This document shows positions 14,401 through 57,334 of a DNA stretch of 64,000 nt, piece after piece. Under the pieces are notes generated by a model, which was given only the letters and a program-made list of their open reading frames with translations, was not told the origin of the DNA and made no database searches. The stretch is from Raillietiella orientalis (lineage: Eukaryota): contig JAYWIR010000012.1 in NCBI GenBank assembly GCA_036172245.1, positions 4,216,001 through 4,280,000 of the forward strand, written 5' to 3'. Numbering within the stretch: position 1 is the stretch's first letter; the number at the start of each line of letters is the position of its first letter. The translations under genes and the position numbers were made by a program.

Positions 14401-16092
14401 GAGCAAGGAATCGGAAAAATACCCTTTCTTCCGTTGCGTCTTCCACTCTCACCCACATTGCCAATTTCTCGTGAATAAGGTAAACACCTTTTATGGGAAA
14501 TAAAACAAACCGGATGTGTGTTCCTAGGAAAGGAATAAAGAGGAAAAAAAAGAGCATTTCTGCTTTCAAATCTTTGCGTGAGATGGAATCCTTTAGACAA
14601 AATGCAATGCCTCGTCTGGATGAGTAGCAGTTCCAGTACCATTGTAAGCTGCTGTTGCATGTTATAACCTTTTGAACGAGTTCAGTATCATTTTGTGGGC
14701 TGTAACGCATTCCAGGAACTTTCTGTGAGCATTCAAACAGGGAAACGGAGGCTTTTGTAACCCGCAGTTATTACGGACATCAATTCATTATTTGTAGCAC
14801 TGGAAATCGGTGGGCACTGGAAATCGGCGATTGCGGCGCGCGGCGGCAGCGTACGAACTGCGGGTCCGACTTTCACTTTTGCAAACCCAAAAAGTGGTAT
14901 GTAATCAGGAAAAGTTTCCATTTCTTTTTCGCAAAGACGAGAAACATTCCTCGCAATGCCTCGAAAAATGGGGAAAGAAACGAATTTACCAAGTAAGAAC
15001 GAAAGTGAAACGTCTTGCAGAATTCTTCCATTTGAAAAATTGATCATTCCTCAAAAGTTTGTTGAGAATCAACCTTTAGTTTTGTGGAATTCCGATAGGT
15101 TTGACAGTTTTCGGTTTTGCATGGCTGCTTTGAGTAACGTGAATGCTTTGCTTCTTTGATGATCTGAAGCAGCTGTGCATGGGATGCTATGTTTGTGTGG
15201 CCATGGTGTGTGCAAGTCTTTGACACACTTCTGAATGCAGCCAACGAATCGACGAGTTTGTTGTCAGGACCTTTACAGCCCAGATTTCGAAATTACTGCG
15301 TACATTCGTCACAGACTGTTCTCATTCCTGTTTCCTGTGCTGTCGTTTTATCCGTGTTTCTTATGTATTTTTGAGAATGTGCTCTATAATGTTAGATAAT
15401 TATCATTGTAGATGATGTTTAACGAGTAGGTAAGTTGGACAAAGTCCATCGGCATTGGAATAATTTATGAGTAATTGGTATGTGTATTACATTTAGTGCT
15501 TCAACATAGACAGTAATTGAATTTGCTATCTTTCAACAGTAGTTCCTTCCACATACAGGGGCTGTACTTTTTCCAGCTGCAGCTTTCAGTGTGTATTATG
15601 TATTTAAGTGGATGTACGTATTGTTTTATTTGTGGTGATTTTAGTTAAGCAATGTTTTCTGTGCTTAATTTCATCCATGGAAATTATGGGTTTCTTCATG
15701 TCCTGCATTGTGTTTGTTTCTTAACCCATTCAGAAAGTACCAGCAACATTTCCTTTCACTGCGCATGCCATTCTTGTGTTACTACTCCAGGAGTACCTTG
15801 CATTTCTTTCTTTCTTTTAGTGAAGAGGATCTTCATATTTTATTTCATTGCCCTGGCAAAAAAGACACCAATCAGATTGACACGTTTAGTATTGCCAGCT
15901 TGTCAGCTTCAGAACATTTAGAAGATTTGAACATGGAAACTGCTAATCAATCACATCATTCTTTCTTTTGCTGCAAACCAGTAGTTTCAAAGACGAGCTG
16001 TTGTCTGTTGTGATTGTTTTGTATTGCAGTCGTTTTGTGTATCCCAGGTTTTCTTTTGCATACTATGTTTTTGGTATCCTCATATTGGAAGC

Positions 16093-17217
16093 ATGAATAA
16101 TCCTGGTAAGCAAGTTGTTCCAATTATTCTTACTGCTACTACATGTTGCATTTCAGCCGATTGTCATTCATCGCAAAATGCTGATGCAGCTGCAGATAGA
16201 TGCAAATTACCTCTGGAAATTGTAGAGTTCTGCAAAACGCTTCCCAAGGCAGAATTGCATGCCCATTTGAGTGGTTCCGTATCTTTGGATACCAGACAAA
16301 AATTCGTTCGTCAGCAGGGTGTTTTGTTGGAGTCTCCTGTGTTTTCAACATTTCAGTCTCTGAATGCTTGCTTGCAATCGTTTCATTCCATCCATGAACT
16401 ACTTAATTGTTTTGAACGTGTTTTCACTGCTACATTTGATGTGATACAAGAATTTTTTGATGATGGTGTCCGGTATTTGGAGTTGCGTACAACTCCCCGG
16501 GCGTTGTCTCCTACTGTTGACAAGCAGCAGTATTTAGAAGCTGTTGTACAGGGCATACAAGCCCAGAAGGTGCGCCTACCGCAAATGGATGTTTTTCTGT
16601 TGGTGTCCATTGATCGTAAAGCTGGTACGGAAGATGCTTGGGATACGCTTGCTGTTACTTTGCGCCTGCATAGTCTCTATCCTGAGACCATAGTGGGCAT
16701 GGATTTGAGTGGTGACCCCCGAGCAGGAAAGGGAGCTGACTTTGCTCCTATTTTGCTGAAAGCTCGTGCTGAGGGATTAAAATTGGCACTTCACATAGCA
16801 GAAGTGGAAGACTTTGAGGATAGCCTGCGTTTACTTGAGTTGCAACCGGATCGTATAGGTCATGGGACTTTTTTGCATTCGATACCAGGTCCCACTGACT
16901 GGAGTCACATTCCTGTTGAACTTTGTCTGACTTCTAATGTACTTTGTGGTACAGTTGCTGCATACGAGCATCATCACTTTAACGCCTTGTGGAAGGAGAA
17001 TCGTCCAGTAGTATTGTGTACTGATGACAAAGGAGTCTTTGGTACCCAGTTGAGCCGCGAATATGCCTTGGCTGCTCATTTCTTTCATTTACTGCCGTCT
17101 GATCTCGTCCTACTCGCCGAACACAGTTTCGAGTATGCTTTCGGAAAGACAAAATCATTTGATTCCCGGGGTTTTGAGTCACGCATACCAAAACGGTGGA
17201 ATACAATGTCTTCATGA
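16093..17217 (+). CDS. ADAL: Adenosine deaminase-like protein (ADAL/MAPDA, N6-methyl-AMP deaminase family)
   Basis: Motifs LPKAELHAHLSGS, DGVRYLELRTTPR, GMDLSGDP, LALHIAE, DRIGHGTFL, ELCLTSN, CTDDKGVF. Likely ATG at 16093 with a probable 51-nt intron 16106-16156 (gtaagc...tttcag); the rest is one exon ending at TGA 17215-17217. Confidence 0.95.
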   Translation: MNNPGKQVVPIILTATTCCISADCHSSQNADAAADRCKLPLEIVEFCKTLPKAELHAHLSGSVSLDTRQKFVRQQGVLLESPVFSTFQSLNACLQSFHSIHELLNCFERVFTATFDVIQEFFDDGVRYLELRTTPRALSPTVDKQQYLEAVVQGIQAQKVRLPQMDVFLLVSIDRKAGTEDAWDTLAVTLRLHSLYPETIVGMDLSGDPRAGKGADFAPILLKARAEGLKLALHIAEVEDFEDSLRLLELQPDRIGHGTFLHSIPGPTDWSHIPVELCLTSNVLCGTVAAYEHHHFNALWKENRPVVLCTDDKGVFGTQLSREYALAAHFFHLLPSDLVLLAEHSFEYAFGKTKSFDSRGFESRIPKRWNTMSS

Positions 17218-20200
17218 TGTCGTAGCAGACGGAGGGAAAGTTTCTCCACATTTCTGCCAACCCGCCATCTTTGCGTTCCATTCTAATGGGATCCGAAAAA
17301 TGTGTCCTCGGTGACTCGGCTCCGATTCCCGTGTGCCTTCAATATCGGTTTATTGCTGCCAAGTTGCCTGTCCGAAATACAATTAACGACTGCCCGTGGT
17401 AATGGTGCAATCAAAAGCCTTCCAGAAATTGGATCGCATCGAGCCTTCATTAGGTCGTCATGATCGAAGGGTGGCTTTATGACGGCTCTTTGCTTTGACG
17501 GTGGTGGTGGTACAGAATTTCGAATCCGTACGTGGATGCAGCGTTTTGCCCTGCAGCTGCTGATCAGCATCTGAAAGAGTGGACTTGCATCGAATGCATC
17601 TGCGAAGGAGGTGAAGCAGGAAGAAATGAATTGCACTGCAAGTATGGTCAAGAAAGTGGAAAGAATCCCATATCTTGGACCCGTTTTTTCCGAAAAATTC
17701 AAGGATCCTGCATAATAAATCTCAAAATTGAATGGCATCATTGAGATGTGATTTTTGCGGATGGATGCACGTTGGTTTATCGTGCTCTTACGACCCGAGG
17801 TGTATGGATAAACGATTGATGGGGAGATCACTTTCAAAAAGTGGTACACGGCTCGGAAAAGGGTTGAAAGCAACGGAATTTCTACTTGTACTTTCGACAG
17901 TTTGGCGAAAAAGCGCTATACATTACAGGACGTGTCGTGGGTACTTCCCCACACGTAGTGGGGGTGGAATCCTCGTGGATTTCCTTCCAGACGAAAGATG
18001 AAGGTGACGGTAGAGAAGCTGAGAGATCCGGGAATGGGGAGCCTTTATGTGGTATTCTCGGCTATTCGAAGCTGGGGCCGCGGTGATCGATCAGGTCCCG
18101 ACGTGCTTTTCTGGGAATAGTGGTCAGGTATCTGTAGGTAGAATGATGGAGGGAGAAAAGAACTGAGTCAAGGTGAGTGCCGTGTTTGTCAAGCTGCGGG
18201 AACAAATTGCATAATTTAAATCGCCAACACCTCGTTGTGTGAATACAATTAATTTGGGGATGTTCTCTTGCATTTTTGTTCGTACCCGTCCCAGAAAATT
18301 GATTTCTGATGTACGATTACCAGCAACACACCAGGTGCTGACATTTGATGACCTTCCACATCAAAAATGTAAGCTTTCCTTGGACTTCTTGATGCCGAAT
18401 AGGGATTGAATTGATGCATTTCTTAGTACGTTGGCAGCACGGAGCACTGCAATTTGTGAAAGAATTCTGAGCTTGCAAAGTCAGCAAACAAAAAGAAAAA
18501 ACCCCAAGGGGAGGAAATCATCAGCAGAGTGTTGCGTTAATGGGACAGGTGGTTGGTTGGGTTGGTAGAGCCAGAACGGTTGTACCGACTCTTGCGGAGT
18601 GCGATGGCGAATGAACGGCAACGGTGAGGTTTTCTCAAGATAATTTTGAACTGCCGAACACGAGTGATTGGTGTCACTGTCAACAGGAGGTACGCCAAAA
18701 GTGTACAAGCCCCTCGGTACACCTTGTCCCAAAGTTTCCAGTTTCGTTTGAAGCAGTCAAGCAGTAGACTTTGCTTTCGAGTCGACAATTGCTACCGGCC
18801 AACTGGCTTCTGGAGTGGATGGAGGCTTCCTGACAGGATGCGGAAACTTTCACTTTTCATCTGTTGCAGAAGGTTCAGCGTTCGATTGCACTGCGCTTCC
18901 ACTCGCATTCTCTCTCTCTTACGACTTTGAGAAGCGTCGGTCAAGCATGGAGCATCCAACTCGTGCCCACCGCTGGCCACCCCACGGAAGCTCCGAGTAG
19001 CGCAAGGCGAGCGCGGGAGTTCAGCCGGCTGGGGCTGCCCCAGTGCAAGTAATCGAGGTGCAAGGGTGCAGGGGGAAAGGGACTCCTCGGAGGCATTCGC
19101 CAAACGGCCAGCTCTCTTCCTGTAGTCCTCTATCTTCTTTAGCTTGGGCAGGAGCACCGCGTCAGGCGTCACAAGGAGTGGGTCGTAGTAGGAGCACCAC
19201 ACCACACGAACGCTTCCTCACGCGAGCTGTTCGGATGGTCTTCGAGGCGAGAAGGACGCTGTGGTATAGGGCAGCAATCCACTTGCCTTCGTTCATGAAG
19301 AGGTCCCCCTCCCCTTTTTCCCCTCGGAACTCGGTCTACGTCTTCTCTACCACTTGCTCCTGCATCTCCCTTCACCTCCAATCAGATTCCAGGAGCACCT
19401 CTTCGAAGCATCACGGGCGAGATGCCCTTGCAAGCGACGGTGGGAGTTTCTCAGATATGGGAGCGGGAGGGGGGGACACCGCAGGCACGCGACTCCGCCG
19501 TCGCAGGTAGGGATGGGCCAGCGGGGATGGGCGATGCAGCTGACAGGGAAGCTGCGCGTGTTGGGTGGACCGAGTCCCGAAGGAGCGGGGGCGAAGGTCT
19601 CGGCATCACCCATGCGATTTCTCTTCAACTTGGCTTCGCCGGACATCCAGCTCGTCTAGGGAAGAGGGAAGGAAATCCCGTAAAGGAGGGAAGTGGGGAG
19701 GAGACGGGGGAAAGATGCAATCGAGGAGAAATGAGGAAGCTAAGGACGCAGAAGAGATGCGAGGGAGGAGTGGAATCTGCGGATCTCGAGAAGGCTCTGC
19801 CGGGAGGCGGCGTTGCCTCTGGACGGACGGACGAAGTCCTCGGAAGTCCCAGGGAGGAAGAAGAGGAGAAGGAAGGGTGGACACGGGGAAGGACGGTGCT
19901 CGCAGACGCGGAGCTGGAGAGCCTTCTTTCTCCTTCCGTTCCCTAGCATGGTGCCGACCACGGGTGGCCGTTGAAGCCGCCCCTGTTTCCTGACTACAGC
20001 TCTTTTTTTGTTGTTGCTGTTTCTTGCGTGAAGGTGTTTGATTTTCTTCCTGTGCCTTGTCGAGAGAAGGGGGAGGGGGGAGAATGGGGAAAGTCGGACG
20101 CGATCGCAATCTCGGTGGAGGAGATGCTGCTGCTTCTCAAACGCTGCTGCATCCCATCCATAATGTCGAGAGATGACGGCATCTTTTTTTCAGGAAGATG

Positions 20201-21249
20201 AGAGTCAGGGAGGCGTCGTTAAGGAAAACAAATGATGGGGGAGCGGCGGCGATTCCATCAAGCGTTCCGCGTGGCACATCCTCTCTCCGCGCTCTCTCCT
20301 CCCTCCCCCCATCATCAGTTCGCGTTGCTGCCGCATAGCCGGGAACGCGCGCCGCCGGTCAGGCGGGTTCGATGCGCGCGCAGGCGCGGTCCCCGTCCGC
20401 CCTCCGCGCGCGGAGGAGGATGGGGCCGCGAGGAGAACCGTGAGGGCCGCGAGGAGAGCGGCCCCGCTTTCCTGGCGAGCACACCCCTTTCTCTCTCCTA
20501 TTCGGGAATTCCGAGGAGCTCCTGCCAGGATCCCGGCCGCGAGGGTCGTCCAAACAGTTTCCCCGGCAACCCCGTCCGTCTTCCCGGTCCCTAATGGTCA
20601 CGAAAAGTCATTTGCGGCGAAGGACGTGCGCGGAACACATTGTGCGGAGGGAAGGAGAGAGTAGGCGGCAGGGCCCGCCGAGGGCACGGAGATGCGTTGG
20701 GGGCGGGGGAGCCTCTAGCTCGGCTTTCCTGGGATTTCCTCCCGTCAGACCGGGAGGAGGCGGGGACTGCCCTCTTCCTGCCTAGGTACGGGGGCCGCAG
20801 GATTCACACCGTGACCCCGGATCGGGCAGCGGACGGCCAGGGACGGAAGGGGAGGGCAGGTAGAAGTCGCGGAAGAGGAAGAGAGCTGAGCGGGTGGGCT
20901 GTGGCTGACGGTGCCCCGGGGGGGCAAACAACTTTGCTGGCCGGTCCCTCTGTTAGGTATAAAGCCCCTGGCTCTGTGAGCTCGCGAACAGCATGACCTC
21001 CCGACTCTGGGAACCACCTGCGTCATTGCTTCAAGCCCTCAACGTCTTCCTGGCGACGAGGAAACGCCGGTAGCAGCGGTTGCAAGGAGGAGAGGAGGGG
21101 GTAACTTTTCGCACGATGGGGGGAGGGGAATATGCAATGTGGGTGAGAGGGGAGTGAGGGTGGATCTCGAGCTCGCGAGGTTTCTTTTCCTCGTATCCCC
21201 GCTGTAGAAGCAAGGATTCCTCGTGCTGCCATCTGCGGGGATAGCACGG

Positions 21250-22100
21250 GGCCGTCCCGATGGAGGAGTGCGTTCTCCTGCGTTTTCCGTGGGAGGAATG
21301 ATCGCACGTTCCCCGCCCTGCGGGGGCTGTCCTTTGGAGCGGGGCGTCGCCGCGTTAGCCGGCAGTTCCGCCCGATGAAAATCCCCAGTCACAGAGGTCC
21401 TGGATCTCCCACTCTGCCTGCCGGCAACCGCGGTCACTCCCTTCTTGGGAGGATAGCGCTGCGGTTCTCTGAGAGAGCTAGCTGGGAGAGCCATCCTCCA
21501 CCGGAGCAGCTGTCCTGAAATCTCTACCTCACGTGCTGGAGGTTGCCAGGAAAGGGGAGTGGAGGGGGGCACGCTCATGTAGTGTCAAAAATCCATCGTA
21601 AAGGGGGGGGGGAGGGTGCGATCTATCTGCAACCGTTAGCGCTAGGGCTCTTACTGCAGACCTGAACGATAAGCCTTCGAAAAATTCCGCAGCTCATAAT
21701 GAGGAGCCGCTGGGTCCTAGTAAAGTCCTAATTTTCCTGGAGTATCAGGAGAAGAAGTAGCCAGTGAGGTCCACATCGGGAAATGTGGGCTAAGTAAAGA
21801 GATTTCATGATGATAATAATAATATCTATGTGTTGGGGGAGGAGTAAGGAAAAGTAAGGAAAGTCACAGGTATTCCCGTGCGATCGTCCCAATGCCCTAT
21901 GGAATTCTGGAAAGTTCTTCAATTCCAGCATCCCGCTGCTCTCCCCAGGAGAGGTTCGTCGAGTGATGTCCCTTTCGTTCTGTCCTCTTTCTGCGGCGCG
22001 TGGTACTGCGGAAGCGGGGCGGAGACTTACGATCTTCGCGGCAGGTGGCACTGCTCTGCACACGGGGAAGAGCTTCAGGGCGACTCCGGGAATGCTAGCC
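21250..22100 (-). mobile_element. Decayed RTE-like LINE APE fragment, split by an AT-rich insert (~21600-21880)
   Basis: Minus strand reads PRAAERGQNERD (compare TRLAEEGQLKE) and LKNFPEFHRALGRS, then TLHERAP (compare ISAYAPT) and VTGDFH (GDFN). Confidence 0.4.
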
Positions 22101-23299
22101 GGGAGCTGCAGATCCGCCTAGAGACGCTCCTCACGCGCGCGCCGGAAGACCCCCCACCTCTCCCAGTATCGTGATCCTCCGGCAGTGGCGGAGGGGCTGC
22201 GCATCGTGCCGCTTCCCTGGATTCCAGAGTTGCGCTCGACCGCGCGGAGTTTCCGCGCCCTCCTCGGGGCGCGGGCAAGGGAGTAAAGGGAGCCACCTCC
22301 AGGGCACAAAGCCAGGAAGGAGGCGCTTCCTCTTGCTTCCCGTCGACCGTTCCCGGGAGAGGAACCCGCGCCGCGTCCCGTCCGCTTGTCGACTCCTCGC
22401 TCTGACTTCTTGCGGTGCGACGGTACCTTCGGTGGTACCTGCGGGAACCGGAATCGTCCGCGGAGAAGGAACGGGGAGCTCCTGGCATACCCAAGACGTG
22501 CACTTCATCCCTACCCCTTTTTCTTGTTTCCTACGGGGGAGGGAGGACAGGAAGGATGGAGGCTGGGAAGGAGAGGCGATCCAATCCGGAATCCCCGTTG
22601 GCTGCTGGCAGCCTTGTGAGCACGGGTGGGACAGCTCCCCCGTCCCCGTGGTTCGCCCCACGAACCCCTAAGAGGACGGCTTTCCGGCATCAGGGCAGCA
22701 TCGCGACCCCGCGCGTGCGTGGACTGGGAGCAGGACGCATGGGCGCCATCTTGAACGGGTAGTGGCGCTGGTGGTACGGGCCGAACGGGTGAGCCGGTCC
22801 TTACGGTGCAGACAGCAGACGTTGGCGGCCCCGCAGCCGGGAGCCTTGCAGGTCTTCGCCGTGGGATCCCTGCGCGGGTGGAAGCTGCCTAAGGGTCGTG
22901 TGTGGATTCTCCGCCGGAACTCGAGCCACGCAGTGGCGAATCCTCCGGAAGAGTTCCGCGCCGCCACCGCCCGCTGCGCTTCGAGGTAGTCGTCATCCCG
23001 AGGTTGGCGGCGACAGTGGGAGGGGGGAGGGGGGCACGGAACGAGACCCTCGCAAACCGTGGACCCCGAAGATGACTCATCTATGGCGGCAGCCATTGTC
23101 GGCAGTTCAGCGGCCATGGAAGAAGAAGTAGACGCGGACCTTTCCGTCCACGTGACCACGCGTCTGCGGGCGCCGTCCTTCCCCGTGACCACTCTTCCTT
23201 CTTCCACTCTTCTCGCCCTTCCTTTTTCTCCGCTCCCTTTCCTCGCCGTTTCAGGGGGACACGTCACGTGATGCCGGCGTCTTCGCAAGCCACGTGCTC

Positions 23300-23820: not shown

Positions 23821-23872
23821 CCTTCCGCGCGCGAACGCCCCCGCCGCGGTGACCGGACGCCCCTCAGACGAC

Positions 23873-24190
23873 GGCGGCAGCGGCGGCTCCGTCCGGGTGA
23901 GCGCGCCACCGCTTGCCGCCTCTGGAACCGGTCGGTCGCCTCCGCGTGCGAGCCGCTTCAGCGCGCGCTGCACGACCCCCCCGCGCCTGGACGCTGCTTG
24001 TGGCAACCGGCGACGCCTTCCACGGCGTCCGCTGAGTGTCGCGTCGGGAGCTCGCAGGCCCTTCCCGCCCGAACACGCCCTTCGGCGGCGGCGCCCTCCG
24101 GCAGTGAGAGAACGGATCGAGGTCGATCGACCTCAAGGCTTCTTTTGGCAACGCTTAGCCCGAGGGAGGGGAGTCCTTCCGCTTCGACGG
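23873..24190 (+). repeat. GC-rich dispersed repeat, copy A (~310 bp)
   Basis: Aligns by eye end to end with 33891-34196. Shared blocks include ggctccgtccgg, accggtcggtcgcctccgcg, gcaaccggcgacgccttccacggcgt, cggcggcggcgccctccgg, tcgaggtcgatcgacc and cgcttcgacgg. Confidence 0.9.
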
Positions 24191-26047
24191 GAGCACCCCG
24201 AGGGAAACTTTGCCTCCGCTTCTGGTGAGGCCGGCTGGCAGTGGCGTTCCCCGCCGCGAAACCGAGGGCGGCGGAAGGAGAAGGCGGGAGTTCTTTCAGG
24301 AAGGGTCTCCGTGACGATGGATGGGCGATGAGCGTACGTGGGAGGATCGCTTCCTCTCCCCTCCTCCTCCTCCACCCTTCGTTCATCTCCTCAGGAGCGT
24401 ATCCCTTCCTTTCCCCTCCACCTTCCCTATCCCCGCCTCCTTCCGAGCGCGCTGGCGAAGGACGCTGCACCAACCATCCAGTGGGGGAGGAGGTCCTGTC
24501 CCTGCCTCCCCGGCGTACTCCAGGGACGTTTCTCGTGGTCCGGATCCCGGGATACCTCGAGGAGGAGGAGTGACGTCACGATGTGCGTCTCGTGTAGAGG
24601 CGGGGACGGGTCTCTGCGCGCACACCGTGGAATCCGAGAGGGAGCGGGGACGGCGGTCCAGAGATGTTCCGCCCCTCATCATCGAAGCGAAGGGGTCTGC
24701 CCCAGATTCAGTGGAAAGAAGGGCGCCCCTCCCGAGGCTCCTGGGAGGAAGGGGAGACGTACGAGAGAGAGAAGGGCCGGGGGCCCCTGCGAGCGACCGG
24801 AGGCGGGGGTGGACGAGGGGACCGATCCGGAAGGGCTATCGACGGGGCCGGCCCGGGACCGCGAGTCACGGGCGACTCGCCGCTACGTGTCGAAGAAACG
24901 GCCCGGACGAGGGGTGGCCGCCGACTGCGAGATTTGCTGCCCGATGCCAGCGGGAGGGCCCGGGGACCGGCGCTCTCTGCGAAAGGGTAAGAGCTGACCG
25001 CTCTCCTGTGGCGCCTCCACCGTGCCGGAAACCTCCTCCATGGATCGCCTCCCTTCCAAGGAAGCATCCGCGGTGCCCCACGCCCAGGGATCGCCCCTCC
25101 GCGTGCGAGACGACGCGTCGACCCCATCCTATCCTCCCCTCTCCCGTTCCCCTCGAGTCCCCCCGTCCCTCGCCCCTCCGGGGAGTCAGCGTCCGCGGCT
25201 CCGTCGGTTCCCGGACCTGACTTCAGAAGGGAGGGGAAACCACCGCCGCCGTTGCCCGGAGCAACGAAGGCCGGAACGCAAGCGGCTGCAGCCGTTTTCC
25301 GGAAAGCGCGAGCGCAGGATGCTGGGGTGGAGGGCGGGTCAGACCCTCCCTCCTGCGCGCGCGTTCTCGCTGGTTGCCCTGGTAGCCTCCGGACGCGCCC
25401 GACCATGGGCTTCTGGATGCTTCGGGCGCCGCCGACCCTCAGGGATGCGAAGGGCTCGCATGTGCAAGGAGGAGCCTCGGCTGACTCAGGAAGGGGGGGG
25501 GGGGACAGGCTGTTCCATCTCCTCTTTCCTCCCGCGGGATCCTTCTCGAAGTGCGGACGATTCCGCGAGCTCCCCCCCTTCCCAGACGGAGACGAGGAAG
25601 GCTGAGGGTTGGACCCGGTAGTCAAGGAAACAGTTCCGCACGCTGCGAACAGGCGATGGGGCCATCGGGTCTTCCTCGCTGCATCCATCGAGAGAGCCTC
25701 GCAAACGGGCGACGGTCGTTCTTCCATCCCACGCTCTTCAGAGTACCCCACCACGTCTCCATGGCTACGCAGGAATCCGGATAAGCAGCCCCGCCTCCCC
25801 TCTTCCACCCGCCCCACCCGGAGTTCGAGCGCATCTCCCGCCGCTCGCGAAGGGAGGATGCAGGGAGAGGAATCTGGAGGCTAAAGTCTCCCACGGCAAC
25901 CGAACAGGGAGCGAAAATTCGGTCGCGACTTGGCGTGCTGCACAGCAACGAGAATCCATCCTCCTCCTCCTCCTCCCTCCCTCCTTCCCCTGCTGCTCCT
26001 TCGGCAGCGGCAGCGACGAAGAGCGGGAGGGCGTCTTCGGTTACGCG

Positions 26048-26178
26048 GTCACGTGACTTCCGCAGAAACCCTCTGCTCCCCCTTCCCCGAAAATCGATAT
26101 GCTGTCCAGATGGCCCCCGGGACGGGAGAGGCTTCTGCGCCTCCGACAGGCTCCCGCGGCGGAAAGTGCACCTCAGTC
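26048..26178 (+). promoter_or_regulatory. Putative annexin core promoter: palindromic E-box GTCACGTGAC, DRE-like AATCGATA, initiator TCAGTC
   Basis: gtcacgtgac at 26048-26057, aatcgata at 26092-26099, tcagtc at 26173-26178; the ATG at 26217 is ~40 nt downstream of the initiator. Confidence 0.5.
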
Positions 26179-26216
26179 TCCACACAGCCGCGACACCCTC
26201 AGGAAGCGCCTTCGTC

Positions 26217-29200
26217 ATGGACCACGGAAGAAGATCCAGGAGCGCCGCGCCTCTCTGCCTACTGCCGCCGCCAGCCCTCGCCCTTCTGGCGGCGCTCCTC
26301 GCTGCCGCCCTGCACGGCGCTTCTGCCGCCCGTAACGTCAGCAGCCTCGCCAACGACGCTGCCAAGGTAACGTGGAGGCGCCGGCGTCAGCGTCCGTCCG
26401 CGCCTCCCGCACGGCGCAGGGGGGCTTGCTGTACTCGCAGGGAGGGAATGGGGTGCGCCACGTCCGCCGGGAGCGTCTGGCCCTCTGGTTCCTCATCCTT
26501 CCTGTTCCCCTCATCCCTCCCACCCCCTCTTCCCCGTCGCCCCAACCAGTGTGGGTGCACGCGGCCGCGGGATTGGCGGGGAAGCCGAGCTGCTGCGGCC
26601 GCTCCTCCAAGCAGGATACGCGTCATGGGGAGGGAAGGAGGGAGTGCAGAAGGATGGACGGACGCGCCCTCCTGACACGTTCGTCCCGGCCTGAGAGAAC
26701 TGAAGCGGAAAGTACTGGAGCCGACCCACGAGTTCCTACGGCAACGGGAGGCGGACGCCTTTAGAAGTCGGAGGACCCCTGCGGCCCCTCTCCCAGCCCT
26801 CTCCTTTTCCACCCAAAAGACGGGAGGGAACAACAACAGAACGAGCAACTCACCCTTCCCCACCGCAGGACGTGCAGGAAGGAGGAGGCAAGGGTCCGGC
26901 GGCGGTCTCCTGAGCCCGCGGGCTCCCAATCCCTTCCGGCCGAACAAGCAAGGACAGCGCGTGCCTTCCCCTCCCATGGATCTTTCCCGAGTGGCACGAG
27001 GCCCTTTTCTGGCGGCGGCCCAGAGGTCCCCGAGTGCACGCAGGACCTCAGCGGATCAGGAGAAGGTGGCCGAAACAGCCGTGGCAACGCGAGTGAACGG
27101 CCTCCGCTGAGGATTCTCCTGTCCCTCCTCTTTCCTTCCTCCTCCTCCTCGTTTCTTCCACTGCGGCGGCGTGGAAGGGCCGCAACGCGCACCTGAAAGA
27201 AGGAAGCAGGGGCAACGGCACCCCTTTCTCCTCGTAGGCGTCAACGACCCGGAAGGTCGAGTTCGACCCTGGAGTTGCGGCCGACCAGCTGTACTACGCC
27301 ATGAAGGGTTGGGGAACCAACGAGGAGGTCATCGTCGCCGTGACCACGGCTCACACGCTGACCCAGAGGCTGCAGATCGCCGCCACGTACCAAGCGAGCT
27401 ACGGAAGGGTGAGTATCTGCTTCTCGGGAACTTCCGGGGGGACGGGACGGAAGGGGGCGCCGCGGCTACGAGCGACGATGTCCTTCCTCCCTTCCCCTCC
27501 CGGGAGGCGCTCGAGTTCCCGGATCTCCTCCCCCCTTTCAGAGTCTCGTGGAGCACCTCAAGTCGGAGACCAGCGGCAACCTGCAGTCCCTCCTGAAGAG
27601 CGTGTACATCCCGTACAACGAGTTCCTAGCGAGGTGTCTGCATAACGCCGTCAAGGTGAGCTCATTCTCCTCCGGGGCATCCACCTCACCCCGCTTTTCC
27701 TTCCTCCCAGGGGTTCGGGACTGACGAGAGAGCCATCATCGAGGTCTTGGTTGGGCGCACCAACTTTGAGATCAACGCCATCAAGGCCACCTACAAGGAA
27801 AGTGAGTAGAGGGGGTGAGGGGCAGACACCCCCTCACGCGCCAAACGTCCTCATTTTTGCAGAGTACGGCGTCGAACTGGAGAAGGACCTGAAGAGCGAT
27901 CTCAGCGGCAACTTCAAGCGGCTGGTGCGCGCCGTGCTGGCCGGCAGCAGGAACGAGCTGGGAGCGCCCACCGCGCACCAGACGGAGGCTGATGTCAGGG
28001 TGGGTCCGAGGCGAGAGGGAGCATAGGGGAGAAAAGGGGGACAGGACAGTGGCAGCAGAGAAAATTCAGTCGTCCCCCTCCGTCTCTTTCGTGCCCTCTT
28101 GTCCCCTGCGCTTCCTTCCTTCCCCTCCACACACACTCCTTCCTACCCCTTTGGATACTTCGGAGACGTCGGCGACCGCGTACTGGAGAAGGGGGGAAGA
28201 GGGTAGGGTAAGGGAAAATATCCTTTGGAAGCCACCCCTCCCCCGGTGTGGGGACCCTCGCTGCCGCCTCGGTATGCTTCCCTCCTTCCCTCCCTCGCAC
28301 GTGGAGGACGAAGAGAGAAGGGGAAGGTCTTTTCCTCCCCTCACCGACCAACCTTTTTCGTGAGGACGCTATTGGCTGTCGGAGGGGGGAGGGTGAACCG
28401 CTTGGGTTAAACTTCCTCCTCCCTTCCTCTTTCTTTCGTCTTCCTCCCTCCCTCCTCCTCGAAGAGGCCCTCTCCTCGACCCCATCTCCACGGAAACGAG
28501 TTCACTTAGGCAAGCGAGGGAGAAGGGAAGGAAGCTGACGCCAATCGAGCGTTGGGGGGGGGGGGGGGGAGTCGAACTCCCCGAACGGGTCCGTCTTCCT
28601 CAGTCCGGCTCCCGGGGAACCGGACGTGCCCCGCATCCTAGAGATGGGTGGGGTTCTAGAAAAGGCGAGTCTGGAAGGTCCTCTTGCTGCGGAACGCCAG
28701 CATCCCGCTCTGAGTCCGGCTCCTGCAGGGGTCGCCACGGTCCCTGAGCTGCATCCTAGGCCAGCAGAGTGCCTCGCGGGAGGGTAAAGGAAGGGAAGAA
28801 GGGTGGGGAGCGGTGGACTTGCTGTCGGGACGGCCTGAGCGCTGCTGCCTGCGTCCACTCCGGCCCGGGAGGGTCGCTGAGCGCCCCGGTCCCGGGGTTC
28901 TCAGAGACCGCGGTGGAAGGGACGCCAGATGGCACTCGCGAGGGCCCGCCAGACTTCTCGCGCGTTTTCGAGATGCAGCTCTCCCCCTCTCTTCCCCTTG
29001 GGAACCTCCGGGAGTACCTCATGGCCGCTCCCTGATCCGGTCTTCCCCTCAGGGTGTGGAGCGGGCTGCCGCCGCCTCTTCCGTCGAGAGCGCCGTCGAT
29101 ACCACCACTCCATGCTGAGGAAGGGCTCCCTCAGCCGCGCCCCCTGTGGTTTAGGGCGCACCGTCCTCAGTGGGCGGCACGTGAACCTGACGCCCCCCTC

Positions 29201-32137
29201 CGAAAAGTCGTAGAGGGCAACCCGAACTTGATCTACCGCACCGCGTTCTCCATGGCGACCGCGGGTTTGCGGCAGGAGACTTTGCCCCCCCCCCCACCCT
29301 TTCCTCCCGTCCTACTCACCCCGGGATCCGGGAGCCGTACCCTGGAAAGCAGGGTCGCGACTCCTCCGGCGAACAGAGAGGATGTGGCGAGGTCTCCCGT
29401 GGCAATGGCTCAGGGCTAGAAAAGCCGACACGGCACAGCAGCAACCAAATCTCCCCCTAATGCGAGGAGACGCGATGCTGCTGCTTTCCCTCCCCCCTTT
29501 CCCTGCCCCCAGAGGAGGGATGGGTGGAGGCGGATCGCCTCTTCGCCGGGGGGTCACGCGGGTGCCGTGGTGGAAGGCGCTCTCTGTGGGCTGGGAGCAG
29601 TCCTTCCCGGGTATGCAGGGGGAGAGGGAGGAGGAGGAAGATGGCACCGCCCCAACCCCTTCGTGACCTCGCGTGTGCACCCTGACCGCATTTCCGTTGC
29701 AGGACCTGCTGTCGGCAGGGGTCGGCCAATTCGGCACGGACGAGTCCATCTTCTTCAAGGTCCTCAACACGAGGAGCTACCCGCAGCTAAGGGCCCTCTT
29801 TGACCTCTACGACCGGACCAGCGAGAAGGACATTGAGAAGACGATCAAGTCGGAGTTCAGCGGGAACCTCCAAGAAGGACTTCTGGCCATAGGTGACCAC
29901 CAACCACTTGCCCCTGTTTTCGGCGAGACGACGCCTCTCTTCCCCCAGTGAGGATCTGCCGGGACCCAGCCCAGTTCTACGCGAAGGAGATGCACAAGGC
30001 GATGGAGGGATTGGGGACGGACGACCAGGCTCTGATTCGGATCGTCGTTTCCAGGCAACCGGTGAGAACCGGCTGCTCCGCAGCACCCGTCCTCTCAGCT
30101 CTGGCTGCGGCGGCAGGAGCAGGCAGGGGGAGGGAAGGGTCGCGCGATCCGGGACGGCTCTTCGACCGCCGCTCCCGCCGAAAAGAGGCGGGCATGAGGA
30201 AGCGCTCGGTGCGAGATGGCTGGCAGGAGGGCAGGAGGGGTGCTGCTGCGAGCAGGGGCAAGAGATGGGGAGGAGGTGCACCGGGAGCGAAGGGCGAGAG
30301 CCTGTCCCACTTCTCCGAAAGCCAGGAAGTAGTAGCCCCCGCACCCGCGCTTCCTGAACCCACGGAGTATCCGACCGGACGGGAAGAGCATCATCGCGAG
30401 TGCACGGGATGCAGGCAAAAGAGCAACTTCGTTGGGAAAGCGGAAAACCCACCGCTGCTCGCACGGAGCCCCCCCCCCCCCGGATGCGTCTCCAGCTTTA
30501 ACGCTGGAAGCCGAACCACCGGCGAGCCCCGCGCGCGCTTCGGGAACCGAAGACAAGAGAGGAAGGAAACTCGAGGAGGCCTCTGGGACCGTAGAGCCTG
30601 AGGGTGCTGCAGCAGCCAGCCCTCCTGACCGCCTTCTCCTTGTGGTTGGTGACGCGAGCGTCGGCGCCGCGACCATCCCGAGCCGATCCCATTCCTCTCC
30701 CCCGCCCGAACGTTCGTGACGTCGACGAAGAGACTCCGTCGAGGCGAGCGGCCGAGCCAAAGGAGCGAGGAATTCCCGGTCGTCGAAAACGTTTGGCCAG
30801 TTCCCCGGGGGAGGGCTGGCGTCGAAGGACGACCATCGCGGCGAGGGTACGTCCGCTCGGTCACGCGACGGGAAAACCGCGTCGCGGCGCATCCCGTTGC
30901 AGAGAAAAAAAAAAAAGCGACGAGGTCGCGGTTTCCGCTGCCCTCCTTCCAAAGCTCTCGGGGCGCGCGGCCAGCAGAACCGCAGCCATTCGTACGACCA
31001 TCAGCATCACTTGCGCCCATCTCACGGTGCGCAGCGCGCGCGTACTTTTGTTTTGCGTTTTTTTTTTTCCCCTCCGCCGTCGTTTGGTGCCGCGTCGGTG
31101 TTGCCGCGACGGCGTTTCGAAAGTGGCAACACTGCAACGGCCAGCGAAGAAAAAAATGAGAAACGCCTCTTAGGTATTATCGACTAATGAGTCTGTGTTC
31201 ATGATAGTTGGGATGACTTATAATTACGATGGTGTCCGTTATTTGGTCCTGAGATTAATAGATTGGAGAGCGCTGAAGACTTTGGGTGCGGTTCCCACCT
31301 AAGAGCAGTTGACGGTTTTCTCAGTTATTACGCTGGAGATCCAAGCATACGTTCTATAAATTGTGATTAGGCGACACTCCATAATTAGCAGCGTGGACGC
31401 TTCTGAAGTGTAAGATTCCAAACAATTTTTACCAAAGAGGTCATTTCCTTTTCACGAGATCCACTTCGTTTCCCAGTTGCGTAAACATCGTGAGGAGGAT
31501 TCTCACCATGATGGGTGTACTTTCTGCGGTGAGGTATATCCCGGTGGCTGTTGTTCGAACGTACGTAGGAAGTGCGTGGTCGTGATGGTCTGAAGCTCAT
31601 ATGCGAGCTGCCCCTAACCGCAAAAAAGGGAAAAGTGAATTGGAACAGATCTGCCGCACTGCTTCTCGGTAAGTTGGTCAGTTGTGCTTGTCGTGCAGCC
31701 GGGAATCCCTGGAGCATCATCTGCAGCCGACTTCAGAGAGTTCGTGCGCTGCCGCGAACGTTATGGCAGATTGAGAAAACTTTAGGCGTTTGCCGCGCCG
31801 GTCGTGGATGAATTCCGCTGGATTTTCCCGACCTTCTTGTGTACTGTAAACGTGTGCCCCGGCTGGAACGATTCTCTCTGGGTTTTTTTTTTTTTTTTGT
31901 TGTTGTTCCGCCTTTCAGTTTTAACCGTCCGCTGGTCCGCCAGCGCTGTTTTTGCGCAAGAAAATGCCAATTGCAAAATTCTCTCCATTTCAGGATGTCG
32001 TTGGTCCCTTTCAAACCAATATAAGAGACATCAGGCGCGCATACGAAAGCAAGTACCACATTTCTCTGGCAGATGCAGTGTACAGCGAAACCAGTGGCAA
32101 TTACCGCACGCTCCTATTGGCTCTCATAAATAAATGA
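26217..32137 (+). CDS. Annexin (four repeats) with N-terminal signal peptide-like exon, 8 exons, 369 aa
   Basis: Exons 26217-26366, 27238-27408, 27542-27655, 27711-27801, 27863-27999, 29703-29892, 29949-30061, 31994-32137; all GT-AG and in phase. Repeats: MKGWGTNE..KSETSG, VKGFGTDE..KSDLSG, GVGQFGTDE..KSEFSG, MEGLGTDD..YSETSGNYRTLLLAL. Exon 1 is less certain than exons 2-8. Confidence 0.93.
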
Positions 32138-33890
32138 AAAGCCGGCTGTTCCACCGTGTTGGACTGTCATGCTTTCGTATTTTGAATAAAGCAGTTCCCG
32201 AATTCGGGAGAGTTGCCTGTAGGAATAAAAAAAAAAAAAAAAACACGCGCACGCACGCACACCTACTCTTTGCGTCTTCCACTTCCCAACTGCTAGCGAC
32301 GGGAAGGACAGGGAAACGGCGTCTGATCCGCCTCGGTTGCAGGACAGAAGTTCTTTCGCGATCGTACAAAGCATTTCGGCGAAAAGTGGACACCCCTGTC
32401 GTCCTTTGAAAGCGGCCACACGGAATCGTTCCCCTGACCACCGTCGCTGCCGCCCTCGGGAACACCTAAGGAAGGTCCTTTTCGACTTAGCAACGAGCCC
32501 AAAGCAACCCTTTCTGCGAGCGCGTGCTGTTCGGAGGAGCAGATCGATTTCAGAGCGACGTGCACGGAAGACCCACTTCCCGCAACGTGAGGTGTTGGAC
32601 ACCAGCTTTCCTTTGCTCTGCATTCAGGAACAGCTCTTGGTTTTCAGAATCGGCTTCGTGATCCTTCGGTGGATGCCGCTTGTCGATGTGTTTGAGGTGT
32701 TCCCATCGATGCACCTCTTCGAGTGTGGCAACGGACTACTGCTAGCATCGCGGGAGCATTGCTTGGATTCCACGAACCCCCGTCTTCTGCCTAGAGCAGC
32801 ATGATTAAGGGATTATCATGCTAAAGCTCTCCAGTGCTCTTTCTGGAGACAAAGCATGCCTTTAATTTCAGGAACCATTGTGGATCCATTATGGTAATTG
32901 CTCACTGATCCATCCACGTCTTCCCAGATTGTCGAAATCAAAAGAGGTGATCTCATAGATCAGGCACGAAAATGACAGTTAAACATTAACGACAATATTG
33001 CATACCAAAGACTGAAAGGGAAGGAGCATCACCGATTCCTTGTGGAATAGTTCATCTGCCATTGGGAATCGAATAGAACAAGGGAAAGCTCAGTCATCAA
33101 ATGACTTTTGTAACAAGACGTCCAGTCGTTCCTGCAGCCCTTCTTTATGCATTTCTTCAGCAGGCTTGTGCTTTTTTCCTTTTTTCCTTTGCTGCTTTCC
33201 GTTCCAAACGAAGATGCTGATGAAAAAACGAGTGGTGCACGCGATAGTCTTATGTCTCATGACGAATCCCGAGTACCTGCAACCGAGTTTTATTTCAGGA
33301 ATTCAAGCTACGTTCCCATGACAAAAGGAAAAAGGAAAGACCAGTTCATTCGCAAAGATAATGCTAAAAAAGTTTCGTTGCAGAGCATAAAGATCTTCAA
33401 GCTACCGACAGGTATAATGCAAAGATTGATAACGTAGAAAAAGATGTTTTGCTCGACAGAGGAAACGTTCCGTCATGACCTCATCATCTGCGTACAAAGT
33501 GAAATACACACAAAAAAAAAAACAAATTTCAGGTTAACACCGTTTCAATTAATTCCAATTAATTAACACTGACGAAACGGCAGCTTCGTTCCACATAATA
33601 ACCTTCCGGAAAGAAAGACAACGTCGAGTGAGGATGGGCTTTTCACTTTAGAAGAGCACGCGGAAGTCGAGGCACTTCTTTCCGCCACCCGCGTCGCACG
33701 ACGGAACGCTTGGCGTCTGCTCCCGTGCCCCCCTGCTACGTGTCAGACCTCCAGCGTCCTCCACGGAAGGGAACTGCGCTCACCCCGGCGCCTCGGCGCC
33801 GGCTCACTCGCAAAACGCCCACACCCTTTCCTCCCGATCGCCGACGCCGGCGGCAGAAAGGCGCCGGGAGGAGGAGGAAGTGGCGGCGGC

Positions 33891-34196
33891 GGCGGCGGCG
33901 GTGGCTCCGTCCGGATGCGCGCGCCACCGCTCGCCGCCTCCGGGACCGGTCGGTCGCCTCCGCGGGCGAGCCGCTTCGGCGCGCGCGGCACGACCCCCCC
34001 GCGCCGCCCGTAGCAACCGGCGACGCCTTCCACGGCGTTCGCTGAGCGTCGCGTCGGGCGCTCGCCGACCCCTCCCGCCCGAACGCGCCCCTCGGCGGCG
34101 GCGCCCTCCGGAAGTGGGAGAACGGGTCGAGGTCGATCGACCCCAAGGCTTCTCCTGGCAACCCTTAGCCTGATGAGACTCCTCCCGCTTCGACGG
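33891..34196 (+). repeat. GC-rich dispersed repeat, copy B (direct repeat of 23873-24190)
   Basis: Aligns with copy A in the same orientation, ~10.0 kb downstream; differs mainly by transitions and one short indel. Confidence 0.9.
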
Positions 34197-38611: not shown

Positions 38612-40239
38612 ATGCCAGGCATTGTATTTGAAAAGCAAGTAAATAATCCAGTATGGAAAGCTCTGAAGGCCCATATACTTCGTGAGCGACAAAGAAAAAA
38701 ACAAGGTAACGGTCGTAAATTCTACAGAAGATGTGTAAGAATGTTCTGAAAATATTTTATCCCTTTTTGCATTGCATTGAAGACCAGTATGTCCGTTTTT
38801 GTTTTTGATGATGTATTGTAATCCATTTTTAGAGCAAGAGGCAAATGCGGAAGAAGAGAGATTAAGGAAAGAACGAGAAAAAAAGCATAAAGAAAATGCT
38901 ATGACATTAGAAGAAACTAAAGAACAAATAACCAACCTGGAGTCTCGTTTAGCTCAGCTGAAGGAAGAGAAACATCAGTTATTTTTGCAATTGAAGAAAG
39001 TATTGAATGAAGATGAAAACCGGAAGAGGCAGTTGTTGATTAAAGAGAGCAGGTTATATATTCCCTTATTTTATTGAAATTTAGTCTGATTTAGGTAGTG
39101 CAAAAGTAACAAATTTCGATTCCCAAAATGCATTTTTTTTCAAGTTAAAGAAAGTTTTGCATTTAAAAGAACTGATTGTATTCAGTTGCCATGTATAATG
39201 CCTTTCACGAATGTTTTGTGTTTCCTGCTGTTTCACAAGAAAAGGAAGGGAAGTAAAATAGATTTTGTGCTAGTGCATTCTTTTGATCAAATGGTTTGTG
39301 TTCACATCACTCGAAAGTTGTGTATTTGGAAACTCAACATTTACTGAAGTATTCAATAACCACATTTCATGCATTCTGTTCTAACAAATGATTTCCTCTT
39401 TATTATTTTAGTGAAATGGCGATGGCCGGATATCAGCAAGATCCCTGGTCCTGTACTCCTCATCCTCCAGTTGTTCTGCAGACTTACCCTGGAGTATCCC
39501 CCAAGCCACCAGTGTCCTTCAAAATTCCCCTCTCTAACACTCATCAAGCTGGCTTTCCAACGGTACAACCAAGCTCTGATCCATTGCATTTTTTTGCATT
39601 CTTTCTATGCCAGACACTGATCAGACACCAGGATCCCAGTCCATCACCTCCTGCTTCAGCATATCAGTCACCATTTCAATTCAAGGCAAACCAGGGCCTA
39701 GTTGCATTTACACCATCTACCCAGAGTGAGTTTTTTAGTTTCAAGCAAGTGTTGACTGATCTTCCAATCTGCAGAATCAGGAAGCAGCATGTATTATGGG
39801 GTGCCTAGTACTCCAAGTAGCATAGTTGGCTCTGGCATGTCACAGCCTGCATATAGCTACAATAATCCTGGCCCTTATGTCATTGAATCCAAGCCACTCC
39901 TTGGCACGTTTCTGGCACCTCGTACTTACATGACTGGCTCCTTGCATCCTCAGCTGGAACCTGCTTCCCACAAGGCCAGCTATGTTGCAGCAGATTATGC
40001 TGGAAATCTGCAAACCCGACATGCATTACCAGTGGGTACTGTGGTAACATTGCAGCCTCGTAGTGATCCCAAAAGTGGAAGTATAACTCATGGTTTTCCA
40101 ATGAGACCTGTGCCTACCAACACCATTGGGGTAAGCTGAAAGTTCTCAAGAAGCATTTGTGATTTGCAATTAGACAAGCTATTCAGGGGTAGTGCCTCAG
40201 CGCATCACGTACTCCCAGCCAATGACACGATTTTATTAA
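38612..40239 (+). CDS. GPS2: G protein pathway suppressor 2 (NCoR/SMRT-HDAC3 corepressor subunit), 6 exons, 332 aa
   Basis: Exons 38612-38705, 38833-39052, 39412-39562, 39614-39725, 39775-40130, 40174-40239. The N-terminal coiled coil ALKAHILRERQRKKQE...MTLEETKEQI..LE..L..LKEEKHQLFLQLKKVLNEDE matches GPS2. It has a P/S/Q-rich tail ending RFY*, like the GPS2 C-terminus. Confidence 0.93.
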
Positions 40240-56495: not shown

Positions 56496-57334
56496 ATTCC
56501 ATTAGCATGGAAGTTCTGAGTGTGTGTGTGGGGGGGGGGGAGAGGGAGGGAACGGGAAGAAAAAAAAAAAAAAAGGCAAAGCAAACGGAATTTCATTTGG
56601 TTCACAGGCGTCTGTTTCCCAAAGCATTTGTTTCTGTAGTCCTTTGGCGATCGGTGTTCCTTTTTTTTTTTTTTCTCCTTCCTTCCTCTCCTTCTTGCAA
56701 GAACCATGCATTATCTCTGTTAATCATTCTGCATCGTCGTCGTAGGTATCATTACACCATGCAGAATTTCAGGATCCTGGAAGGTGAGAAGTGAGCTTTG
56801 TCGATTTATTATTCTTTTACCTGACATGTGAGAGCCGAATCCTCGGAACGAACAGCTGATGGCAACGAATCAGCTGTTCACTAATGGATTCTTTTATCGC
56901 CTTGAGGAGGGCATCACGGACCTGCATGCCCCGATAGACGGCACTTGAAACACGCCCGAGCATCTTCCGGAGATAAGGTGTTTTCGAAAGATATCAGACC
57001 AAATTACGTGGACACTTGTGCGAACTGGTATAAGAGTGCCCCCCCCACATCTTCCCTCCTCTCACCCCTCTTCCCTGCACAACGGTCGCACGTAGGAAAC
57101 GCGTGAAGGTACACACACACACACATTGCTTGAAGGTCACTAACCTAAATGATTGCTGCGAGCATAATAACTGTCTCTCTGACCCATTTATCAGTGAAAG
57201 ACCCACTAAGAAAGCCGAGTATGCGGCGGGATCCGTAGTCATGGAGAGATGTGGTGGTGGAACACAGCACTGGTCGTGAGGTGTTTGAGTTCCTGAAGTA
57301 CCGACGTATCTGTGATATTGGACAATGTGTCACC

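What the first reader, a model, noticed from the sequence alone, without database searches (positions are those of the whole stretch)
26217..27408. Annexin with a classical signal peptide: candidate secreted or lumenal Ca2+/phospholipid-binding annexin
Seen: exon 26217-26366 encodes MDHGRRSRSAAPLCLLPPPALALLAALLAAALHGASA|ARNVSSLANDAAK. It has a basic n-region, a Leu/Ala h-region, an A-S-A cleavage motif and an N-V-S glycosylation sequon just after the predicted cut. It ends at a good donor (AAG|gtaacg) in phase 0, matching the acceptor of the first core exon, and follows an Inr/DRE-like promoter. All four GxGT...D/E calcium motifs are present. Established: annexins are cytosolic and normally lack signal peptides; the exception I recall is the secreted annexin-like effector class of cyst nematodes. 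Inference: an annexin rerouted into the secretory pathway, where it would be constitutively Ca2+-loaded and could act as an extracellular phosphatidylserine shield, anticoagulant, or cuticle or gland component.
Basis: partly seen in the sequence, partly recalled or inferred. Interest (0 to 1): 0.8.

Follow-up and report, generated by a model that had tools for sequence, protein, structure and literature searches.

The report
Export-tagged annexin of a tongue worm
This animal, probably a tongue worm (a parasitic crustacean of vertebrate airways), has two related genes for a calcium- and membrane-binding protein that normally stays inside cells, and one copy appears to have gained an export tag, which makes it a candidate component of the parasite's secretions, although no RNA or protein evidence confirms the tag yet.

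Summary
Window 26217-32137 is an intact 8-exon, 369-aa four-repeat annexin gene, and exon 26217-26366 encodes a signal-peptide-like leader. The genome is probably a pentastomid's (COX1 groups with Armillifer and Linguatula). Only one other annexin locus was found. That paralogue has the same intron positions and is 157/319 identical, but its first exon is modelled as ATG only, and its transcript-like orthologue P0141 is leaderless. The leader therefore looks like a gain after a lineage-specific duplication. Support for exon 1: it is unique DNA, it is the only hydrophobic one of 24 candidate first exons, and it has coding-type codon bias confined to the exon (0 of 93 null windows reach it). Against: no RNA run was listed, no orthologue was found, no trained predictor was available, and a chance pseudo-leader sits upstream of the paralogue. 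Best reading: a secretory-pathway, Ca2+-loaded phospholipid-binding annexin (0.65). Its most likely role is in the parasite's surfactant-like surface secretion, which is inferred only. Signal-peptide annexins have a precedent in Heterodera 4F01, so this is a new variant, probably an independent gain.

The parts
26048..26057 (.). Palindromic E-box GTCACGTGAC (the CLEAR element sequence), about 160 nt upstream of the ATG; candidate promoter element
   Evidence: 1 match in the window, 0.02 expected; the 12-mer around it occurs 71 times in the genome against 24 for the reversed control; motif named from PMC7815692; motif chosen after seeing it; function untested
26093..26178 (+). DRE-like ATCGATA (26093) and Inr-like TCAGTC (26173); weak candidates for a core promoter
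   Evidence: TCAGTY is common (36 sites on + strand); first ATG after the Inr-like site is 26217; DRE and Inr consensus recalled
26217..26366 (+). Exon 1 (predicted): 50-aa leader with n-, h- and c-regions, cleavage most likely after residue 37 or 38, sequon at N40, phase-0 donor
   Evidence: unique DNA; junction not confirmed by RNA
27238..27408 (+). Exon 2: start of core, repeat 1 helices A-C; contains the internal Met at 27301
   Evidence: Pfam PF00191 E 4e-11; same size and phase as in the paralogue
27542..27655 (+). Exon 3: repeat 1 D-E with acidic cap, start of repeat 2
27711..27801 (+). Exon 4: repeat 2 loop and helices B-C
27863..27999 (+). Exon 5: repeat 2 D-E, linker, start of repeat 3
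29703..29892 (+). Exon 6: repeat 3
   Evidence: Pfam E 5e-18; PDB annexin matches
29949..30061 (+). Exon 7: repeat 4 helices A-B
31994..32137 (+). Exon 8: lineage-specific 7-aa insertion region, repeat 4 C-E, stop
   Evidence: insertion also in P0141
32185..32229 (+). Two AATAAA polyadenylation-like signals (32185, 32224)

Best explanation
An annexin gene duplicated in this lineage (shown by tree and shared gene structure). One copy (C19) kept a Met-only first exon and stays cytosolic. The window copy gained a 50-codon first exon that encodes a cleavable signal peptide plus a short linker with an N-glycosylation site (exon shown in DNA, splicing and cleavage inferred). The leader would take the protein into the ER. 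In the Ca2+-rich lumen and outside the cell its four intact calcium sites would be loaded constantly, so it would act as a constitutive binder of anionic phospholipid rather than a calcium-switched one (follows from annexin biochemistry; not tested). In a probable pentastomid the most likely use is in gland secretion: binding or stacking the surfactant-like lipid coat on the cuticle, or masking phosphatidylserine at the blood-feeding site (inferred only; about 0.3 and 0.15 of the total, the rest being lumenal or other extracellular roles).
For: Exon 2 has an in-frame stop at its acceptor and conserved residues before its first Met, so an upstream coding exon is needed; no ATG|GT exon like the paralogue's exists between 20600 and 27237. 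The leader exon is the only one of 24 phase-0 candidates with a hydrophobic segment (2.80; next best 1.21) and has the best donor of those within 2 kb. Synonymous codon score +0.12 in frame, negative in both other frames and in the same frame on both flanks; 0 of 93 non-overlapping null windows reach it, 1 of 93 when Ala is left out; the paralogue's chance pseudo-leader scores -0.30 and four rival exons -0.01 to -0.19. DNA is single-copy. Paralogue: same exon sizes and phases, 157/319 identical without gaps; its 91% orthologue P0141 from a 1129-nt contig starts at the equivalent Met. Tree: window + paralogue + P0141 97 SH-aLRT, sister to an ostracod annexin 95 (quick tree). Core keeps 68 of 80 conserved columns, the paralogue 70. 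Precedent for a natural gain: Heterodera 4F01 (PMC2791119); an engineered signal-peptide annexin V is secreted and used to label phosphatidylserine-exposing cells (PMC7205869). Pentastomids feed on blood and coat the cuticle with a self-made surfactant (PMC4681768, PMC12130985; both cite Riley and Henderson 1999, which I did not read).
Against: No transcript evidence for the junction and no orthologue with the leader was found, although a relative's leaderless paralogue is in the database. Signal-like spliceable leaders do arise by chance here, one directly upstream of the paralogue. Seven of the 24 candidate first exons have higher donor scores, all more than 2 kb upstream. The leader is long (37-38 residues) with four prolines before the hydrophobic core; no trained predictor was run. 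The codon model rests on two genes and misses a true exon (the last 50-codon piece of the core scored -0.40). Faster evolution of the window copy is only weakly supported: branch 1.08 against 0.50 in the quick tree but significant with only 2 of 7 outgroups. Fewer cysteines (2 against 6) and no core sequons (0 against 3) fit but are common among other annexins (7 of 59 have <=2 Cys; 28 of 59 have no sequon). Nothing ties the protein to glands or cuticle.
Confidence: 0.65

Rival explanations
1. The exon is real but the hydrophobic segment is an uncleaved signal anchor, giving a type II membrane protein with the annexin core tethered on the cell surface or in an organelle lumen (for example lysosome-related, given the CLEAR-type motif).
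For: 19-residue hydropathy mean 2.14 with a basic N-terminal flank; long leader; CLEAR-type palindrome upstream.
Against: The proline-free hydrophobic core is only about 13 residues and is followed by a His-Gly break and several valid small-residue cleavage sites. A scan of 30 of the 71 motif loci found no lysosomal gene (2 loci had any Pfam hit), which is uninformative.
Confidence: 0.12
2. The leader is a chance feature of GC-rich upstream DNA; the true mRNA uses another first exon (or starts at Met 27301) and the protein is an ordinary cytosolic annexin.
For: Chance leaders at 3 loci in 49 real-DNA tiles, one upstream of the paralogue; stronger donors exist further upstream, e.g. at 24987; annexins are normally leaderless: only 5 of 285 other fetched proteins had a hydrophobic N-terminus, and at least 3 look like model errors.
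Against: Coding-type codon bias exactly over the exon, absent from the rival exons and the chance leader; a start at 27301 would delete helix A of repeat 1, whose residues are conserved with the paralogue; the rival at 21116-21142 lies in a duplicated element.
Confidence: 0.17
3. The leader is a mitochondrial presequence or a plain cytosolic N-terminal tail (annexin tails vary freely).
For: Residues 3-46 have no acidic residue and are rich in R, S, A and L; annexin N-termini are divergent (PMC3795353).
Against: Arginines are confined to the ends with an unbroken hydrophobic stretch between them, which is typical of SRP-type signals rather than amphipathic presequences (established knowledge; not tested with a predictor).
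Confidence: 0.06

Closest known systems
Heterodera 4F01 annexin-like effectors (Hs4F01, Hg4F01; PMC2791119)
   Same: Four annexin repeats plus a predicted cleavable signal peptide, gained in a parasite while relatives lack it.
   Different: Nematode plant parasite; 21-aa signal, 340 aa; gland expression shown; thought to act in host cytosol. Here a probable crustacean parasite of vertebrates, 37-38-aa signal plus sequon, no expression data; 4F01 was not in my tree, independence is inferred from the window gene's grouping with its own leaderless paralogue.
Leaderless paralogue on G000:C19 and its orthologue P0141
   Same: Identical exon sizes 2-8 and intron phases, 49-50% identity, the same 7-aa insertion in repeat 4, same first-intron position.
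   Different: First exon is modelled as ATG only; 320 aa; 6 Cys and 2-3 core sequons.
Invertebrate B-family annexins (insect B9/B11, ostracod Darwinula annexin) and vertebrate A4/A7/A11/A13
   Same: 41-46% identity over the core, conserved calcium-site pattern; the P0141 model matches solved annexins at TM 0.95.
   Different: No signal peptide; no repeat-4 insertion (spacing 48 in 3 of 176 scorable sequences, all from this lineage; 41 in 143).
Non-classically secreted parasite annexins (Echinococcus B3/B38, Taenia B1, Giardia alpha-giardins) and planthopper salivary NlANX5
   Same: Annexins acting outside the parasite cell at the host interface (PMC7869467, PMC12249911, PMC12541338).
   Different: The cestode and Giardia proteins lack signal peptides; NlANX5 has two annexin domains and the passages I saw do not state whether it has a signal peptide.
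P0068 (unnamed JGI/IMG protein) and P0081 (Microcaecilia 'annexin A8', XP_030059015.1)
   Same: Four-repeat annexins whose predicted N-termini look like signal peptides.
   Different: Long branches far from the window gene; predictions only, P0081 may be a mis-set start. They suggest further, separate gains.

Membership tests
Annexin (PF00191) | Four ~70-aa annexin repeats | tested here: met
   7 of 7 core exons hit PF00191; 4 domains by HMM
Annexin (PF00191) | Type II Ca2+ sites: GxGT loop plus distal D/E cap | tested here: met
   Caps present in all 4 repeats; loops canonical in repeats 1, 2, 4, repeat 3 has the usual longer variant
Annexin (PF00191) | Four five-helix bundles (annexin fold) | tested here: inconclusive
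   Folded only for the sister protein P0141: pLDDT 93, 20 helices, TM 0.95 to annexin IV; the window protein aligns to it without gaps but was not folded itself
Annexin (PF00191) | Ca2+-dependent binding of anionic phospholipid | not testable with these tools
   needs a liposome assay
Classical (Sec/SPI) secreted protein | n-, h-, c-region and small residues at -3/-1 | tested here: met
   hydropathy and rule-based scan only
Classical (Sec/SPI) secreted protein | Call by a trained predictor (SignalP, Phobius) | not testable with these tools
   none available; ESM Atlas gave no usable hit for the 50-aa exon
Classical (Sec/SPI) secreted protein | Leader exon is spliced to the core in mRNA | tested here: inconclusive
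   indirect support from codon bias and paralogue structure; no reads could be laid
Heterodera 4F01 effector class | Cyst-nematode gene | tested here: not met
   COX1 of the genome groups with pentastomids; annexin groups with an ostracod sequence
Heterodera 4F01 effector class | Orthology to 4F01 | not tested
   no 4F01 sequence was fetched
Heterodera 4F01 effector class | Expression in a secretory gland and delivery to the host | not testable with these tools
   no expression data

The most novel reading that the evidence does not exclude
A pentastomid annexin duplicate was converted into a classically secreted, constitutively Ca2+-loaded lipid binder that builds or anchors the surfactant-like coat with which tongue worms evade immunity in the vertebrate lung. 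It would be a first named protein candidate for that coat and an independent parallel to the cyst-nematode 4F01 gain. The last codon of exon 1 (AAG) sits where the paralogue has its ATG, so the old start may have been lost by a single base change, closing off a cytosolic isoform (AAG is also simply the preferred donor context).
Probability: 0.25. Interest if true: 0.75.

Novelty: new variant of a known kind. Interest (0 to 1): 0.55.

Why it matters
Annexins are a textbook case of proteins that reach the outside of cells without a signal peptide; natural signal-peptide versions are rare (5 of 285 other proteins fetched here had a hydrophobic N-terminus, most doubtful). A cytosolic and an export-tagged paralogue in one genome, with identical gene structure, is a clean natural pair for asking how a cytosolic calcium sensor becomes a secreted lipid binder. 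If the host is a pentastomid, it gives a specific, testable protein for a surface coat that the papers I read describe only as a surfactant, and a candidate antigen for diagnosis in a neglected parasite group.

Tried and rejected
RNA evidence: no RNA holder was listed for 26100-32300, so no reads were laid; this is no evidence either way. Orthologue searches: exon 6 against longer proteins, 6 hits among 36 candidates, best 60%; exon 2 against the 50% representatives, 150 of 633 hits listed, none above 47%; alignment A2, 120 of 5595 hits listed, where the window model itself would score 420 bits against a listing floor of 265 and 80%-identical stand-ins 243-311, so a close full-length orthologue is probably absent; metagenome contigs, 0 of 597 pattern matches confirmed. 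Origin of the leader by exon shuffling: two weak own-genome matches (E 0.07 and 0.9) are non-coding-looking GC-rich frames; rejected. Leader derived from a repeat: rejected. More annexin genes: three queries found only two loci (lower bound). CLEAR regulon idea: 150 ORFs from 30 of 71 motif loci, 2 loci with a Pfam hit, none lysosomal; uninformative. ESM Atlas: nothing for exon 1, no useful taxon for the ADAL gene. MAFFT stacked the exon rows on one repeat in A1 and A2, so these are repeat profiles, not full-length ones. A frame error for the paralogue's upstream ORF and an exon-4 boundary error were corrected. The careful annexin tree did not finish; the quick tree is quoted. CpG density does not single out exon 1. 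Earlier findings were not open.

Full report
What is there. Reading 24500-33600 and testing boundaries gives eight exons: 26217-26366, 27238-27408, 27542-27655, 27711-27801, 27863-27999, 29703-29892, 29949-30061, 31994-32137. All seven introns are GT-AG and the product is a stop-free 369-aa ORF, followed by two AATAAA signals. All seven core exons match Pfam Annexin, exon 1 matches nothing. The four acidic cap residues are in place; repeat 3 has the longer loop variant and repeat 1 has Asn after GT. The core keeps 68 of 80 columns that are at least 85% conserved in 59 other annexins, so it is an intact gene.

Source. The genome has 210 Mb in 491 contigs. Its COX1 has Armillifer (77%, 76%) and Linguatula (75%) among its four best hits, with a beetle at 74% between them. 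It groups with the three pentastomids at 100 SH-aLRT and shares 16 residues with them against 16 other arthropods (long-branch warning; no branchiuran in the set). The mitochondrial contig has A 34.5, C 28.4, G 8.7, T 28.4%, close to the range given for pentastomids (PMC12202648, passages and tables). I treat the animal as probably a pentastomid, not as identified.

The paralogue. Three queries found annexin exons at only two loci (a lower bound). The second, on C19, has identical sizes for exons 2-8 and identical phases, and aligns without gaps at 157/319 identity; its first exon is best modelled as a bare ATG before a strong donor. A database protein, P0141, is 91% identical to it, comes from a 1129-nt contig and starts at that Met, which supports the model. 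Window gene, paralogue and P0141 share a 7-aa insertion in repeat 4, seen in 3 of 176 scorable sequences (111 of 287 could not be scored); an AlphaFold model of P0141 puts it in the loop between helices B and C, in an otherwise standard annexin fold. In a quick tree of 47 rows the three form a clade (97) next to an ostracod annexin (95). So the duplication is lineage-specific and the leader is most simply a gain in one copy.

Is exon 1 real? An upstream coding exon is required, because exon 2 has an in-frame stop at its acceptor and conserved residues before Met 27301. No ATG|GT exon lies between 20600 and 27237. Of 24 phase-0 ATG-to-donor candidates between the upstream ADAL gene and exon 2, the leader exon ranks eighth by donor score, first within 2 kb, and is the only hydrophobic one. 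Its DNA is single-copy. Markov nulls give such a leader in 0-2 of 1500 samples, but real GC-rich DNA gave three loci in 49 overlapping tiles, one of them an in-frame pseudo-leader upstream of the paralogue's Met; that is the main warning. A test independent of amino-acid content separates the cases: synonymous codon choice in exon 1 resembles the annexin cores (+0.12 bits per codon), while the other frames, both in-frame flanks, four rival exons and the paralogue's pseudo-leader are negative; 0 of 93 null windows reach the score, 1 of 93 without Ala. The model is small and failed on one true piece of core. A CLEAR-type palindrome lies 160 nt upstream, but its meaning here is untested. I put the exon at about 0.8 real.

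What could not be shown. No orthologue carrying the leader was found, no reads could be laid, and no trained signal-peptide predictor was available. Evidence for adaptation of the core to a secretory life is weak.

How it most likely works. Shown: gene structure, intact calcium-site residues, leader anatomy, leaderless sister gene. Inferred: splicing, ER import, cleavage after residue 37 or 38, glycosylation at N40, constant Ca2+ loading and binding of anionic phospholipid. That an annexin tolerates this route is shown by engineered secreted annexin V (PMC7205869, passages). Speculative: the target. Pentastomids feed on blood and coat the cuticle with a self-made surfactant thought to hide them from immunity (PMC4681768 and PMC12130985, passages; the primary source, Riley and Henderson 1999, not read); head glands are mentioned in PMC11532890 (passages). 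A secreted lipid-binding annexin fits that coat best, then the feeding site. Rivals are an uncleaved anchor, a chance leader on a cytosolic annexin, and a mitochondrial or plain tail.

Comparison with what is known. Annexins found outside cells generally lack signal peptides (PMC12249911, PMC7869467, passages); a survey of parasite and vector annexins does not contain the words 'signal' or 'secret' (PMC3795353, term counts and two passages). The exception is Heterodera 4F01, with a 21-aa signal and gland expression (PMC2791119, passages). Planthopper salivary annexin-like proteins are secreted, signal status not stated in the passages seen (PMC12541338, PMC10940699); their supplements were not opened and may hold more cases. 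Among 285 other fetched proteins of at least 250 aa, five had a hydrophobic N-terminus; two (P0068, P0081) look like possible signal peptides, three like model errors. Searches for a pentastomid or other signal-peptide annexin in the held library (listings) gave no further case; 'annexin' with 'pentastom' gave one paper, on reindeer plasma. The library lacks most subscription papers.

Verdict. A real annexin with a probably real signal peptide; it works like the 4F01 type in principle but is not a member of that class. New variant of a known kind, interest 0.55; higher if the junction and a place in the surface coat are confirmed.

Noticed in passing
window 30061/31994 and L012 577/2248: Both annexin paralogues and P0141 carry a 7-aa insertion at intron 7 that removes the conserved Glu and Asp of the repeat-4 B-C segment; seen in no other fetched annexin.
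   Followed up: partly
   Followed up: partly
L011:6564-6974: A 137-codon in-frame ORF with a hydrophobic start runs into the paralogue's Met; it has non-coding codon usage and begins beside an ATC-rich tract; a useful false-positive control.
   Followed up: yes
window 19800-23202: 19800-21161 is duplicated at 96% on C12 about 170 kb away, and 44-bp inverted repeats lie at 19867-19910 and 23159-23202; possibly a DNA-transposon-like element. It contains a TATA-like site at 20958.
   Followed up: partly
window 23869-24190 and about 33887-34196: A 310-bp repeat at 86% identity flanks the annexin gene on both sides.
   Followed up: no
window 15985-17217 (+): Long single-frame adenosine deaminase-like ORF in AT-richer DNA, apparently without introns over 400 codons.
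   Followed up: partly
window 2694-3268 (-), 38781-39074 (+), 57239-58039 (+): Exons of a signal peptide peptidase, a G-protein pathway suppressor and a VTT-domain protein.
   Followed up: no
window 1-64000: GC content swings between 30% and 68% over a few kb, an isochore-like patchwork.
   Followed up: no
L011:3256-3474: Frame ending in a hydrophobic segment and a PPPx stop, resembling a KASH domain (motif recalled; Pfam gave no hit at E 0.001).
   Followed up: partly
G000 C282, C285, C33, C50 and others (L016-L019): 54 COX1 matches, many broken, on nuclear-sized contigs (probable NUMTs); on C282 cox1 and cox2 are separated by about 550 bp with a repeated tRNA-like start.
   Followed up: partly
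P0068, P0081: Two unrelated four-repeat annexins with signal-peptide-like N-termini, one unnamed (JGI/IMG), one from a caecilian; possible further independent gains.
   Followed up: partly
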